In this document: positions 33,001 to 36,000 of the stretch, piece by piece
How the letters are laid out: the number at the start of each line of letters is the position of its first letter
Position numbering within the stretch: position 1 is the stretch's first letter
Assembly (NCBI RefSeq): GCF_017348835.2
Contig: NZ_CP071375.1
Strand: one strand, 5' to 3'
From: Escherichia coli
GTDB taxonomy: Bacteria; Pseudomonadota; Gammaproteobacteria; Enterobacterales; Enterobacteriaceae
Length of the DNA: 64,000 bases
Position numbers: made by a program

Positions 33001-36000
33001 ACCTGATGCATACGATATGCCTTAAATGCGGCACGAAAGGCTGTCATTATTAATTCCGATTGAGTTTATTATTAATTAGGTCACTGGCTTACTGCATGGT
33101 TGCCTTAATACGCGGAGTTAATGCACCGTAATCATTGATCGTCTGAAAACTGATATCCCCGGTTGCAGCATGCGGGATATCCACCGATACTTCACCTTTT
33201 GGCGGCACCATGGTGTTTGGGAGATTGCTATTTCCTGCTTTCATATTTGTTACGGTAATGAAGTAGGGCGTTGGATTAATAAGGGTGAGTTTGCTACCGC
33301 TGCGACGAAACCGAAGCATTGCAGGCGCTTCTTCAGGTGCCATTGCCAGGTTCGTGGGGCGATAAAACATTTTTATGCGGCTAATAATTGCCAGCTGTAA
33401 TGTATTCTCATTCTTCTGGTCTTTTTCCATAGCAGGAATAGCTTTAACATTCACCCAGAACAGGCTTTCACGGTCGCCTGGTAACTGATGATTAGTGGCA
33501 TTGATTATCCGCAGCGTATTCTCTTTTTTACCTTGCATGGAAAAAAGCGGTGGGGTAATGACAAACTGGGTGTCTTTTTGGTCACCTGCATTTTCTATCC
33601 ATGACTGAATGAGATAGACACTGGCAGGATCATTATTCGTGACAGGCAATAAAACCTGTTTCTGGTTTGCCGGATAAATTACCCGCGTCGCACCCAGTGC
33701 GACAGCTGCGTTGGCAACGGTGCTATGGCAAGCAAAGAGCAATAAAAGTAACACTGTCGCCATAAAGGAAATAGAGTAGGGGGTACGCGTAGTTTGCATC
33801 TGATGCATTCTCCATGTGTTAAGAGGATAAGCGGGAAAACCGTTACATCAGACAATCGATAAATGTTGCTAATACATTGGCGAGTCGCCGGGTTTCCAGA
33901 CTTAATGCGTTTGTAATAAATGTTGGTTCTCTTTTAATAGGAAAACCTTGCTACAAAGTAAATATTTTAAATAACAGTAAGTTTAACTACTGTTGTTTAT
34001 TGATAGTTTAGATATTATGTGATTTTTCATAGCGCTCCAAATACAAACCACTCCTCATTAATAATGAGATTCACATTGGTGAATTGCTCGGGTGTGCGTA
34101 GCCATGCCACACACACCCTGTTTCAATTTCAGATGACGTATAGCCACCTTAAGATTGAATTATAGATATTGAACCTTGAAGGTCGCATCTGCGTTTGCAG
34201 TACCAGCTACGGACTGCCCGAGTGCAATATAACGAGCCTGGAACGGCAGTATATTCGTGCCATCAATCAAGTCAGTTTTAGCGCTAAAAGTGGCACCATC
34301 AAGTATTAATACCTCACCCGTACGGTCCAAAATTTGGATACCGACATTTTGGGCAGAGCCTGCCGCTGAACTCTGCAGCGCTAACGTATCGTCATTACTG
34401 GTGACAGTAGTACCCAGGAATGCAACAGCTGCATTACTGGAAACATTGGTATCACAATCATTCAGCTTGATATTGAAGCCAACGGCGGAGCTGAGGTCAC
34501 CCGCTTTAGCCAGGCGAGAAGAACGAACCTGACCCAGCTCAACCGTTTGGTTCATTGATTCTGAATCAATCGCACAAGCGGCATTTACCACTTCACCTTT
34601 AAAATGAATAACACCGCCATTAACAGTGGTCGTTACTGATTCATCACCCTCGCCTGCGCTTACCGCAGCAGACGACATCGCCAACACAGAAACGACAATC
34701 ATACCAACATGTTTGAGTTTCATAATTCTCCAAAATTTATATTTAAGTAGCTGAATAAAGAGAGTTAACAATTAAGTCATTCTGTTATTGCTTATAAAAC
34801 AAGAATCATTCTTGATTGGTTGTTGCCCTGAGAATATAGTTTCCAGGATTATTACATTTCACGAAGAACGAGAATATCTTTAAATCACAAGGACACCTAA
34901 TCACAACAAGTTTATTGCTGCACTTGTTGAAGAGAGTATTTGCAAAAATATTTTATGTCGCTAAATAACATAACGATTTCATTATGCATGTTATTTATAA
35001 ACCGTGACTAAACAGAATATTATTGCGAACAAGGGAAGTGTCAGGAAAGGTCAAGGGCTACTAATGGTTTATATGGCTATAAATCATTAGCTATAGTTAA
35101 TGTTTGCCTGGTGTAACTAACACCGAATTGCTCTAAACAGATAAGTGCAGGGTTTATTAAAGCTGACCGACAGACTTTCTTAACCTGGTAATATCTCTCT
35201 TAGGTGACTCTCCAAACATCTGCAAATATTCCCGGCGGAAATGGGATAAGCTTTCGTAACCGACAGCATAGGCTGCTGTGGTGACATCGTAATGTTCATT
35301 CAGCATCGTTCGCCTGACTTCATTGAGACGTAGCCATTTCTGATACCGGAGTGGACTCATTCCCGCAAGCTGCCTGAAGTGTTGATGGAAAGAGGGCGTG
35401 CTCATTTGCACGCGGTTTGCCAGCTTGAGTCTTCAACGCTGGGAAGATGCGGCAAACGGCAAATCGGCATACCAGCCAGCCTATATCCGTCATGCACAGG
35501 CCAATTATGAAAGAGGAGAGGCTTAAGTTCTGGAACCCTGAACGAATAACGAGCACCGGAAAATCACTTCGTATCACTCAGATGCTATTTAACATAATAT
35601 ACATTATGCGCACCAATATAAACCAAGGGAGAATCTAGTCGTTGGCGGTCATGATTGTCCTGCTCATTAACAACGACCAAACCCCATATCTTACTCTTAC
35701 TTAATACCGTATTCCCGGCTTAACCGACCGTGCAACCTCAACACATTGGTTTCAACTGCCGTCACCACGTTCTCTGGAAAATCTGTCGGTAATGAAGTCT
35801 TCACGTTATCCAGTGCTGCCGGAATCATTCTGGCAAAGTCACTCAGGATTTCATGCATCTGCACTTCCGGGAATCTCAGCACCTTTGCTGTCGCCAAAAA
35901 ATGTCGCGGATAAATTTTATCGATTGCCGTTTTTTTGCCTTTGGATGCGTTAAGCCCCATTGCCAGTTTGAGATCGCTGATGTGTATTCCCGCGCCACCC

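What the first reader, a model, noticed from the sequence alone, without database searches (positions are those of the whole stretch)
34772..35700. Gene-poor scar between the fimbrial operon and hipA
About 0.9 kb between the fimbrial major-subunit promoter and the hipA 3' end contains only an 84-codon AraC HTH remnant and no convincing ORF. Together with the IS fragment 0.4 kb away, this looks like a junction where past rearrangement occurred.
Basis: inference. Interest (0 to 1): 0.3.

Follow-up and report, generated by a model that had tools for sequence, protein, structure and literature searches.

The report
Chromosome dif site with island debris
This "empty" stretch holds dif, the site where E. 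coli unlinks its chromosome copies after replication. The broken AraC gene beside it is probably leftover cargo of a mobile island that inserted at the edge of dif. Both dif and the pseudogene are already known at this spot, so only the island link is new.

Summary
Window 34772-35700 has one ORF with a domain match: 84 codons (35157-35411, minus), an AraC-family HTH remnant (yneL in K-12, ECs2114/Z2199 in O157). An IS3-family fragment lies 410 bp further on, inside hipA.

The exact 28-bp dif site (GGTGCGCATAATGTATATTATGTTAAAT) sits at 35587-35614. All nine KOPS motifs in the window point towards it, and a TerC-like site lies 16 kb away.

Between the F9 fimbrial promoter and dif, 35122-35586 is a collinear mosaic of gene fragments:
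- AraC codons 216-303
- 20 codons of a divergent alpha/beta-hydrolase
- the RBS and start of a DUF2255 gene

This module is intact next to the XerD arm of dif in Klebsiella, Enterobacter and Citrobacter.

In other E. coli, the outer 7 nt of the XerD arm (ATTTAAC) is a repeated island junction:
- a 12.7-kb island with its own recombinases (GInt-like) and a full-length AraC gene
- a 7.5-kb oxidoreductase island
- a different 407-bp remnant in B2-type strains

K-12-type strains carry an independently deleted version of the same module.

The scar is therefore real, but it reflects island turnover at dif, not the nearby IS. dif and yneL are already known here; reading yneL as an island fossil is a modest new detail.

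The parts
34160..34723 (-). fmlA ('fimA'), major subunit gene of the F9/Fml (ydeQRST) chaperone-usher fimbrial operon; left neighbour of the interval
   Evidence: Pfam Fimbrial E=7.5e-31. RefSeq annotation of the 99.9%-identical strain PE164.
34724..35121 (-). AT-rich (about 30% GC) F9 promoter / 5' UTR region. E. coli-specific sequence, conserved in strains with an intact F9 operon. K-12's F9 deletion ends inside it at 34902.
   Evidence: Composition. Homology map to other strains. PMC7766294 used the equivalent 441-nt fragment (window ~34735-35174) as the fmlA reporter, with temperature-dependent expression.
35115..35121 (+). AACTAAC, left boundary of the island-derived DNA; an imperfect (5/7) direct repeat of ATTTAAC at the dif edge
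   Evidence: B2-type strain U12A shares sequence up to 35121 and then diverges until 35587. Homology to other genera starts at ~35138-35153. K-12 has the same boundary.
35122..35156 (-). 35-bp tail downstream of the AraC stop codon, belonging to the island-derived segment
   Evidence: Absent from the B2-type strain. Present in all remnant-bearing E. coli examined.
35157..35425 (-). Fragment (a): AraC-family pseudogene remnant (yneL / ECs2114 / Z2199), codons 216-303 plus stop of a 304-aa AraC_N+HTH_18 regulator. The 84-codon ORF is 35157-35411.
   Evidence: tblastn: 87.5% identity to residues 216-303 of the full-length E. coli argW-island copy. 84.6-88.9% DNA identity to full-length genes in Klebsiella, Enterobacter, Citrobacter and E. 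coli. PGAP: 'incomplete; missing N-terminus'. Constraint is relaxed.
35426..35485 (+). Fragment (b): codons 226-245 of the divergently transcribed alpha/beta-hydrolase gene, fused directly to AraC codon 216. One deletion removed both 5' halves and the shared promoter region.
   Evidence: blastn: 88-97% over 60 bp to the hydrolase gene in six loci. tblastn: 18/20 residues, E=5e-7.
35506..35553 (+). Fragment (c): ribosome-binding site and first ~10 codons of a DUF2255 gene; the ATG is mutated to AAG
   Evidence: 83% over 48 bp to K. pneumoniae L007 3754-3707 and E. vonholyi L015 1810-1763. That gene carries PF10012 DUF2255.
35587..35614 (-). dif, the XerC/XerD chromosome-dimer resolution site. 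On the + strand: XerD arm 35587-35597, central region 35598-35603, XerC arm 35604-35614. The outer heptamer ATTTAAC (35587-35593) is the recurrent island junction.
   Evidence: Exact match to GGTGCGCATAATGTATATTATGTTAAAT. That 28-mer is the one several papers print (it occurs in PMC3025954); that it is E. coli dif, and the arm assignment, are from my own knowledge. dif lies between yneL and hipA in K-12 (bioRxiv 10.1101/2025.09.02.673814; K-12 coordinates). KOPS polarity switches here. Island junctions.
35615..35665 (.). About 50 bp flanking the XerC arm, ~75% conserved in Citrobacter and Enterobacter; function unknown
   Evidence: blastn of window 35587-35665 to C. youngae L012 (76%) and 35584-35652 to E. 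vonholyi L015 (83%). Sequences shown.
35697..36109 (-). 3' fragment of hipA (about codons 303-440), right neighbour of the interval
   Evidence: HipA_C E=2e-14. Homology to K-12 and PE164 hipA.
36110..36547 (-). IS3-family fragment inside hipA. It is unrelated to the origin of the scar.
   Evidence: HTH_Tnp_1 ORF. ALIL pseudoknot RF01497, 88.9 bits. PE164 has the complete IS at the same place, and the window lacks 1,488 bp relative to it.

Best explanation
The interval is the dif locus of an E. coli chromosome.

**dif (established knowledge plus sequence).** XerC and XerD each bind one 11-bp arm of the 28-bp site at 35587-35614. FtsK, steered by KOPS motifs that converge on the site, activates XerD at the septum, and the pair resolves chromosome dimers.

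**The DNA on the XerD-arm side (35122-35586) is not ancestral spacer.** It is the collapsed remains of a gene module: AraC_N-type regulator, divergent alpha/beta-hydrolase, DUF2255 gene. That module lies next to the XerD arm of dif in several enterobacterial genera.

**At least three deletions reduced it:**
- One fused AraC codon 216 to hydrolase codon 226, removing both promoters and both 5' halves.
- One removed the rest of the hydrolase.
- One removed DUF2255 and everything up to 33 bp from dif.

The surviving 84-codon ORF is a drifting pseudogene.

**Inferred step.** The module arrived as 3' cargo of a dif-targeting integrative island of the GInt type. Such islands carry two tyrosine recombinases, a large third protein and a small fourth protein at the 5' end. 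Members of this family recombine at the outer 7 nt of the XerD arm (ATTTAAC), leave dif intact, and stack next to earlier arrivals, which then decay.

The IS3 fragment in hipA is a separate, recent event.
For: **dif**
- Exact 28-mer, unique in the window, none expected by chance.
- The same 28-mer is the one printed in several papers; that it is E. coli dif is from my own knowledge. It lies between yneL and hipA in K-12.
- All 6 plus-strand KOPS lie left of it and all 3 minus-strand KOPS right of it; a TerC-like site is at ~51.49 kb.

**Mosaic**
- Four collinear matches to one Klebsiella locus, in the same order and orientation.
- The matches recur in Enterobacter, Citrobacter and K. michiganensis.
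- In the five loci where dif lies within the fetched stretch, the module is on the XerD-arm side with AraC distal; L014 and L017 show the gene pair but not dif.

**Independent decay**
- The K-12 type keeps AraC codons ~235-303 plus the last codons and terminator of the hydrolase.
- The window type keeps hydrolase codons 226-245. Neither derives from the other.
- K. pneumoniae ATCC 13883 has its own 5.3-kb deletion.

**Pseudogene**
- PGAP flags the remnant as 'incomplete; missing N-terminus' in each of the seven E. coli genomes whose annotation was read; MG1655 lists yneL as a pseudogene.
- The first HTH and the AraC_N domain are missing.
- By my count from the pairwise output, roughly 11 nonsynonymous and 5 synonymous changes among remnants. 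dN/dS is 0.03-0.24 among full-length copies.
- The remnant is frameshifted in K-12 and absent in B2-type strains that keep F9.
- Its upstream reporter gave minimal expression in EHEC Sakai (PMC7766294).

**Island link**
- A 12.67-kb island is flanked by ATTTAAC repeats. It has recombinases of 446 and 513 aa, then 788-aa and 142-aa proteins, and a full-length AraC as its last gene. It is inserted between dif and the remnant.
- A 7.53-kb oxidoreductase island is flanked by the same repeat and shares an ATGAACTTA motif at the same offset from its end.
- The B2-type remnant ends in an 85-bp stretch 77% identical to that island's 5' end, and a homologous island-end sequence abuts dif in E. vonholyi.
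- The identical recombinase operon abuts a perfect dif at the same nucleotide in 9 of 9 places from the integrase look-up and 9 of 10 from the 142-aa protein look-up (the sets overlap), in at least 4 different chromosomal backgrounds.
- dS between AraC copies of different genera is as low as 0.07-0.11, which I take to be far below genus-level divergence (no core-gene comparison was run) and so to indicate horizontal transfer.
Against: - No recombinase gene or recognisable island 5' end survives in the window. The 33 bp next to dif (35554-35586) match nothing fetched.
- The left repeat is imperfect (AACTAAC vs ATTTAAC, 5/7), so the left boundary is defined mainly by comparison with B2-type strains.
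- The same AraC-hydrolase pair also sits in an argW/intS prophage-like island in 87 E. coli genomes, so it moves by more than one vehicle.
- Sequence homology of the island proteins to Pseudomonas GinABCD was not tested. The 788-aa protein gives only a sub-threshold integrase hit (E=0.023).
- Conservation of dif alone would make any surviving breakpoint fall just outside the 28-mer. Exact abutment is therefore weaker evidence than the flanking repeats and the multi-background insertions.
Confidence: 0.8

Rival explanations
1. The AraC-hydrolase-DUF2255 genes were ordinary, vertically inherited chromosomal neighbours of dif in the enterobacterial ancestor. They decayed in place in E. coli through terminus-region deletions. 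Recombinase-bearing islands happen to use the same site but never carried them.
For: - The gene pair occurs in four genera, and in the five loci where dif is visible it sits on the same side of dif in the same orientation.
- The window holds no island end or recombinase remnant.
- The remnant's dS to any full copy is 0.35-0.63, so it is old.
Against: - Genes distal to AraC differ in every genus: F9 fimbriae in E. coli, DeoR/FGGY sugar genes in Klebsiella.
- AraC copies from E. coli islands, E. vonholyi and K. pneumoniae differ by dS of only 0.07-0.11.
- A full-length copy is the terminal gene of a recombinase-bearing island flanked by ATTTAAC.
- In E. vonholyi an island-end sequence lies between dif and the module.
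- B2-type strains replace exactly 35122-35586 with a different remnant that ends in the island-end sequence.
Confidence: 0.15
2. The scar was produced by insertion-sequence activity. The IS fragment 0.4 kb away mediated the deletions that truncated the AraC gene.
For: An IS3-family fragment lies at 36110-36547. It did cause an adjacent 1,488-bp deletion within hipA relative to strain PE164.
Against: - The IS lies within hipA, on the other side of dif.
- Only 12 of ~5,400 genomes are >=99% identical to this allele class, and PE164 is the only fetched strain with this IS at that position.
- The same AraC/hydrolase/DUF2255 junctions occur in strains XDL, S1-SRL-01-C and SWHEFF_68, which have no IS in hipA or no hipA at all.
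- No IS end or target duplication lies at any junction inside 35122-35586.
Confidence: 0.03
3. The 84-codon ORF is a functional small HTH protein that regulates the adjacent F9 fimbrial operon. It was proposed as 'putative regulator ECs2114' in EHEC Sakai.
For: - The ORF is open, keeps the second HTH, and matches HTH_18 strongly.
- It sits directly upstream of fmlA.
- PMC7766294 treats it as a candidate regulator.
Against: - It lacks the AraC_N domain and helices of the first HTH.
- Substitutions among remnants are mostly nonsynonymous.
- It is frameshifted and further truncated in the K-12 type, which is about 40% of sampled genomes.
- It is absent from B2-type strains that retain an intact F9 operon.
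- Its upstream region gave minimal reporter activity.
Confidence: 0.04

Closest known systems
E. coli K-12 dif locus (ydeT - yneL pseudogene - dif - hipA)
   Same: - Same gene order and orientation.
- Identical 28-bp dif.
- Same left boundary (..AACTAAC|ACCG).
- Same DUF2255-start fragment and the same 33 bp next to dif.
   Different: - K-12 has lost the F9 major subunit, chaperone and half the usher; its deletion ends at window 34902.
- K-12's yneL is shorter (AraC codons ~235-303) and frameshifted.
- K-12 keeps the hydrolase 3' end and terminator instead of hydrolase codons 226-245.
- K-12 hipA is intact, whereas here it is split by an IS3-family fragment.
GInts (genomic islands with the ginABCD recombination operon; Bardaji et al. 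2017, PMC5385486)
   Same: Features of the related islands at this site:
- A 5' operon of two tyrosine recombinases, a large protein without clear domains and a small fourth protein.
- Variable cargo and a short 3' end.
- Short direct repeats at both ends.
- A strictly site-specific location.
   Different: - The target here is the outer XerD arm of dif, which neither the GInt paper nor any paper in the searched library mentions.
- The repeats are 7 nt rather than 10-11 nt.
- Homology to GinABCD was not tested.
- The window itself keeps only cargo fragments and no gin genes.
IMEXs (integrative mobile elements exploiting Xer: CTXphi, the gonococcal genetic island, EludIMEX/EcloIMEX of Enterobacter)
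   Same: - Islands integrated at dif that leave one functional dif.
- Successive elements can stack.
- EcloIMEX elements show that enterobacterial dif sites are used by islands.
   Different: - IMEXs use host XerCD, cross over in or next to the central region, and leave a pseudo-dif (typically a good XerC arm plus central region) at the far junction.
- Here the far junctions share only ATTTAAC, with no XerC arm or central region.
- The complete island encodes its own recombinases.
AraC_N-type AraC/XylS regulators (PF06719 + PF12833), paired with a divergent hydrolase or oxidoreductase gene
   Same: The remnant aligns over residues 216-303 at 85-89% DNA identity to 304-aa members that sit divergently from an alpha/beta-hydrolase gene.
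   Different: Only the last 88 codons survive. The ligand-binding domain, the first HTH and the promoter are gone.

Membership tests
dif (XerCD chromosome dimer resolution site) | 28-bp sequence: 11-bp XerC arm, 6-bp central region, 11-bp XerD arm, matching the species' dif | tested here: met
   Exact match to GGTGCGCATAATGTATATTATGTTAAAT at 35587-35614. The same 28-mer is printed in the literature; its identity as E. coli dif is from my own knowledge.
dif (XerCD chromosome dimer resolution site) | Single copy, located where KOPS polarity converges in the terminus region | tested here: met
   One match in 64 kb at up to 3 mismatches. KOPS: 6/6 on the + strand to the left, 3/3 on the - strand to the right. 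TerC-like site 16 kb away. Cumulative GC skew at this scale was uninformative.
dif (XerCD chromosome dimer resolution site) | Same genomic position as the experimentally defined site (between yneL and hipA) | tested here: met
   K-12 MG1655 has the 28-mer at 1590750-1590777, between yneL and hipA. A deletion analysis mapped dif function to that 114-bp interval.
dif (XerCD chromosome dimer resolution site) | XerC/XerD binding and FtsK-dependent recombination | not testable with these tools
   Requires biochemistry or genetics. Inferred from sequence identity with the K-12 site.
AraC/XylS transcription factor (functional member) | Complete ~100-aa DNA-binding domain with two HTH motifs | tested here: not met
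   The remnant starts at residue 216 of 304. The full-length protein's first HTH_AraC match begins at residue 204, and the remnant's HTH_18 match starts at model position 6.
AraC/XylS transcription factor (functional member) | N-terminal effector/dimerisation domain (here AraC_N, PF06719) | tested here: not met
   AraC_N covers residues 31-182 of full-length homologues. No trace was found in the window by tblastn or in translations of 35100-35720.
AraC/XylS transcription factor (functional member) | Purifying selection on the coding sequence | tested here: not met
   Among remnants, roughly 11 nonsynonymous vs 5 synonymous changes by my count; some pairs have 0 synonymous and 1-4 nonsynonymous. 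Full-length copies have dN/dS 0.03-0.24. The sample is small.
GInt-type integrative island | ginABCD-like operon (two to three tyrosine recombinases plus a small protein) at the 5' end | tested here: not met
   None in the window. In related E. coli locus L018 the architecture is present: 446-aa and 513-aa Phage_integrase proteins, then 788-aa and 142-aa proteins. The window therefore holds at most a fossil, not a member.
GInt-type integrative island | Short, often imperfect direct repeats at both ends | tested here: inconclusive
   In the window: AACTAAC (35115-35121) vs ATTTAAC (35587-35593), 5/7 identical. The repeats are perfect 7-nt ATTTAAC around the 12.67-kb and 7.53-kb islands of L018 and L019.
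GInt-type integrative island | Site-specific integration at one chromosomal target in different hosts | tested here: met
   For the related complete element, the 5' end abuts the XerD end of a perfect dif at the same nucleotide in 9/9 places and 9/10 places (the two sets overlap). These cover E. coli-type, Citrobacter-like, Enterobacter-like and a fourth flank, and the first 4 kb is 99.98-100% identical.
GInt-type integrative island | Sequence homology of the recombination proteins to GinA-D of Pseudomonas | not tested
   No reference sequences were available. The protein and record identifiers were not found in the truncated supplementary lists of PMC10214605.
IMEX (Xer-exploiting integrative element) | Pseudo-dif (XerC arm plus central region) at the distal junction, showing crossover by XerCD in the central region | tested here: not met
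   Distal junctions of the L018 and L019 islands, and the window's left boundary, share only the outer heptamer of the XerD arm. No XerC-arm or central-region similarity is present.
IMEX (Xer-exploiting integrative element) | No self-encoded integrase; dependence on host XerC/XerD | tested here: not met
   The complete related island encodes two tyrosine recombinases. Dependence on host Xer is not testable here.

The most novel reading that the evidence does not exclude
The outer heptamer of the XerD arm of dif (ATTTAAC) may be the attachment core of a widespread, currently mobile family of GInt-like islands. These islands bring their own multi-recombinase module instead of borrowing XerCD, keep dif intact, and stack and decay on the XerD side. 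On this reading yneL and its neighbouring micro-fragments are fossils of serial island turnover at the E. coli terminus. The islands deliver oxidoreductase clusters and possible phage-defence genes: UvrD-helicase plus OLD-type ATPase pairs were seen in related loci. If so, islands found at enterobacterial dif sites cannot be assumed to be Xer-dependent IMEXs.
Probability: 0.45. Interest if true: 0.6.

Novelty: already known. Interest (0 to 1): 0.33.

Why it matters
- **dif is easy to overlook.** It is the one cis-acting site the chromosome needs to resolve dimers, yet automatic annotation leaves it out. None of the RefSeq records read here lists it, so the interval looks like junk.
- **Practical consequences.** The ORF beside dif has been treated as a candidate fimbrial regulator, and its cloned "5' UTR" reporter fragment contains dif itself (PMC7766294). 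Deletions or insertions designed in this "gene-poor" gap would hit dif.
- **Evolutionary interest.** The locus shows how the DNA next to dif turns over. The same 7-nt edge of the XerD arm is the junction for at least three different insertions in E. coli, and for an identical element in several genera. Older arrivals are whittled down to fragments of 48-270 bp.

Tried and rejected
- **Structured RNA.** An Rfam scan at E<=1 found nothing in the interval. The only hits were the IS3 ALIL pseudoknot and a sub-threshold cobalamin-riboswitch hit inside fmlA.
- **Promoter/terminator scan.** It gave only consensus-level hits in AT-rich DNA (8 found vs 3.4 expected), which is not informative.
- **Other ORFs.** The 85-aa and 63-aa ORFs have no family match and are out-of-frame read-throughs.
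- **A naturally short (~130-140 aa) AraC family.** The many short database proteins suggested this. Rejected: they are gene-caller artefacts on the remnant, or pieces of frameshifted nanopore assemblies of a 304-aa gene.
- **Full-length gene at this locus in E. coli.** None replaces the remnant. 87 genomes carry a copy at argW/intS, and 7 carry one inside an island beside the remnant.
- **Species-wide scan.** A degenerate DNA pattern found only 7 loci and none in an Escherichia representative genome, so other Escherichia species remain unexamined.
- **Small conserved ORF across dif.** Rejected: the frame carries a stop codon in Citrobacter (read by hand from the sequences).
- **Origin of the gap segments.** Short-query BLAST of 35486-35505 and 35554-35586 matched nothing outside E. 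coli.
- **GInt membership from published lists.** The identifiers were not found in the truncated supplements.
- **GC skew.** Cumulative skew at the 64-kb scale showed no clean inflection at dif.
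Full report
**What is at the coordinates.**
The window is E. coli. Its nearest complete genome is pig isolate PE164 (99.9% over 34700-35750), and O157:H7 EDL933 is 98.6% identical over 35100-35760. 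The interval lies between the F9/Fml fimbrial operon and hipA. The major-subunit gene fmlA is at 34160-34723 on the minus strand, and the hipA stop codon is at 35697-35699.

The six-frame ORF list shows only short ORFs in 34772-35700. One has a domain match: 35157-35411 (minus, 84 aa), with HTH_18 at E=2e-20. No Rfam family matches inside the interval.

An IS3-family fragment occupies 36110-36547 inside hipA. It has an HTH_Tnp_1 ORF and an ALIL pseudoknot. PE164 carries the complete IS at the same place, and the window lacks 1,488 bp relative to PE164.

**The AraC remnant and its lost parent.**
A protein search with the 84 residues returned only short proteins. Some of them carried N-terminal extensions typical of AraC_N-type regulators.

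Klebsiella loci encoding one of these proteins hold a gene of about 305 codons, broken by assembly frameshifts. Clean full-length 304-aa copies (AraC_N + HTH_18) occur in several places, each divergent from a 365-aa alpha/beta-hydrolase gene:
- Citrobacter youngae
- three Enterobacter species
- K. michiganensis
- 87 E. coli genomes, inside an island beside intS/tRNA-Arg

The window retains residues 216-303 at 87.5% identity. PGAP marks this remnant 'incomplete; missing N-terminus' in each E. coli genome whose annotation I read.

Its evolution looks unconstrained. By my count from the pairwise output there are roughly 11 nonsynonymous and 5 synonymous changes among remnants, while dN/dS among full-length copies is 0.03-0.24. 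In EHEC Sakai the same ORF (ECs2114/Z2199) was proposed as an F9 regulator, but its upstream reporter was essentially silent (PMC7766294).

**The rest of the "empty" DNA is a collinear mosaic.**
BLAST of 35100-35760 against the Klebsiella locus gave four matches in the same order and orientation:
- (a) 35145-35423: the AraC 3' end
- (b) 35426-35485: codons 226-245 of the hydrolase, on the opposite strand (18/20 residues, E=5e-7)
- (c) 35506-35553: the ribosome-binding site and first codons of a DUF2255 gene, with the ATG mutated
- (d) 35587-35613: a 27-bp stretch 100% identical

Pieces (a), (b) and (d) recur in Enterobacter and Citrobacter.

Fragment (a) abuts (b) directly. One deletion therefore removed both 5' halves of the divergent gene pair and their promoter region.

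**Fragment (d) is dif.**
While checking the literature on yneL I found that dif lies in the 114-bp yneL-hipA spacer of K-12 (bioRxiv 10.1101/2025.09.02.673814). The 28-mer I know as the canonical E. coli dif, GGTGCGCATAATGTATATTATGTTAAAT, is at 35587-35614 on the minus strand with no mismatch, and none is expected by chance. The same 28-mer is printed in several papers. MG1655 has it at 1590750-1590777.

On the plus strand the XerD arm is 35587-35597, the central region 35598-35603 and the XerC arm 35604-35614.

Supporting context:
- All six plus-strand KOPS (GGGNAGGG) in the window lie to the left of dif and all three minus-strand KOPS to the right.
- A site matching the Ter core, and most of TerC as I recall it, lies at about 51485-51507.

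The RefSeq records read here do not annotate dif, which is why the interval looks empty.

**Multi-strain comparison: the edge of dif is the pivot.**
A 60-row evenly spaced sample of about 5,400 complete genomes, combined with nine fetched E. coli loci, gives these states:

| State | Rough share of sample | Description |
|---|---|---|
| Window/O157 type | ~7% | Contiguous, as in the window |
| K-12 type | ~40% | Keeps AraC codons ~235-303, then the last codons and terminator of the hydrolase, then (c) and dif |
| hipBA-less strains | not estimated | Join 35757 to 37192, retaining 60 bp of the hipA 3' end, so they are deletion derivatives |
| 7.53-kb island type | ~8% | LysR-regulated oxidoreductase cluster inserted between (c) and dif, flanked by ATTTAAC |
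| 12.67-kb island type | seven genomes | Inserted at the same nucleotide and flanked by ATTTAAC. Two tyrosine recombinases (446 and 513 aa), 788-aa and 142-aa proteins, IS copies, and a full-length AraC as the last gene, 480 bp from the old remnant |
| B2 type | ~15% | Replaces exactly 35122-35586 with 407 bp whose last 85 bp resemble that island's 5' end |

The K-12 type cannot derive from the window type or the reverse, because each keeps a different part of the hydrolase gene.

ATTTAAC is the outer heptamer of the XerD arm. In each case a perfect dif is kept on the hipA side.

**The complete island is dif-specific and currently mobile.**
The identical 446-aa recombinase gene was found in nine places. 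In all nine, the element begins immediately after ...GTTAAAT of a perfect dif. Its first 4 kb is 99.98-100% identical across four different chromosomal flanks: E. coli type, Citrobacter-like, Enterobacter-like and one other.

A second look-up with the 142-aa protein gave nine of ten places with the same junction; some of these places overlap the first set. Cargo varied (oxidoreductase clusters, UvrD-helicase plus OLD-type ATPase pairs, other nuclease-like genes), and two of these islands contain a fragment of the module's hydrolase.

The gene order matches GInts (PMC5385486). Homology to GinA-D was not tested, and the 788-aa protein has only a sub-threshold integrase match.

The far junctions carry no XerC arm or central region. 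These elements therefore do not look like classical Xer-dependent IMEXs.

No paper in the searchable library links GInts to dif. Islands at dif in Enterobacter (EcloIMEX) are known.

**Interpretation.**
- Shown: the interval contains dif. The DNA between the F9 promoter region and dif is a deletion-riddled remnant of an AraC/hydrolase/DUF2255 module. E. coli lineages carry independently decayed versions. The XerD edge of dif is a recurrent island junction.
- Inferred: the module originally arrived as the 3' cargo of a dif-targeting, recombinase-bearing island.

The inference rests on four points:
- the terminal position of the full-length AraC in the complete island
- the island-end sequence between dif and the module in E. 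vonholyi
- the precise replacement seen in B2-type strains
- dS of 0.07-0.11 between AraC copies of different genera

The main alternative is vertical inheritance of the module next to dif followed by decay in place. I give it about 0.15.

The IS3 fragment is a separate, lineage-restricted event in hipA.

**Verdict.**
The key feature, dif, was missed and the IS is a red herring.

dif and the yneL pseudogene are already documented at this locus, so the finding itself is ordinary. The added value is the anatomy of the scar and its link to island turnover at the edge of dif.

Noticed in passing
window 51485-51507 (+): The sequence CATAGGATGTTGTAACTAATATGG contains the Ter core GTTGTAAC and matches TerC as I recall it. 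It lies about 16 kb from dif, as expected for the terminus region.
   Followed up: partly
window 4914-48049: KOPS motifs (GGGNAGGG) sit at 4914, 5794, 10652, 19520, 20644 and 28954 on the + strand, and at 38412, 39194 and 48049 on the - strand. This is a perfect polarity switch at dif.
   Followed up: yes
window 35697-36897: hipA is split. Its 3' part (35697-36109) and 5' part (36548-36842) are separated by a 438-bp IS3-family fragment. Relative to PE164, which has the whole IS, 1,488 bp are missing (mid-hipA plus most of the IS). hipB (36842-37108) looks intact, so this strain has an antitoxin without a functional toxin.
   Followed up: partly
window 35757|37192; loci L002, L003: Some E. coli lack hipBA through a clean deletion that joins window 35757 to 37192 and leaves the last 60 bp of hipA. 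In them the autotransporter pseudogene follows almost directly after dif.
   Followed up: partly
window 35615-35665: About 50 bp beyond the XerC arm of dif are ~75-83% conserved in Citrobacter and Enterobacter, although the genes further out differ completely. Function is unknown; this could be an accessory sequence or an older element end.
   Followed up: no
window 34902; locus L004/L021: The K-12 deletion that removed the F9 major subunit, chaperone and half the usher (ydeT) ends at window 34902, inside the F9 promoter region and 220 bp from the island boundary.
   Followed up: partly
L013 1070-1782 vs L007: K. pneumoniae ATCC 13883 has its own 5.3-kb deletion. It leaves AraC residues ~222-303 joined to sequence 430 bp from dif. 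The endpoint in AraC is only 19 bp from the E. coli endpoint, which may point to a deletion-prone spot.
   Followed up: partly
L010 12000-17150 (E. coli BS90R-A and 86 other genomes): A full-length AraC/hydrolase pair, with a truncated iron-type alcohol dehydrogenase gene between them, sits beside intS and tRNA-Arg in a degenerate KplE1-like prophage region. The module therefore also travels outside the dif context.
   Followed up: partly
L012 3242-3969; L031 1360-2957; L026/L033: Toxin-antitoxin pairs recur around dif in other genera: HigB/HTH_3 between the module and dif in C. youngae, a hipB-hipA pair on the XerC side in L031 (host genus not determined), and a ParE-family pair in another background.
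   Followed up: no
L033, L035, L037 at 12320-15465: The dif-adjacent islands in other backgrounds carry a UvrD-helicase plus AAA_15/OLD-TOPRIM ATPase pair, which resembles Gabija. L037 also carries Cap4-nuclease/AAA_22 and SLFN_AlbA_2 genes. These are possible phage-defence cargo.
   Followed up: no
L016 (JARKOR010000214.1, 'Candidatus Nanosynbacter' MAG): A 25-kb contig labelled as a Nanosynbacter MAG carries the E. coli F9-yneL-dif sequence at 93.6% identity. This is almost certainly contamination or mis-binning.
   Followed up: no
L015 7570-7675: Enterobacter vonholyi has a second, 106-bp fragment of the AraC 3' end 1.85 kb downstream of its full-length copy. This again suggests stacked and decayed copies of the module.
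   Followed up: no
rows H104, H138, H142: A few E. coli genomes break homology at window ~35617-35621, just outside the XerC arm; one has an IS1. Rearrangements therefore also occur on the other edge of dif.
   Followed up: no
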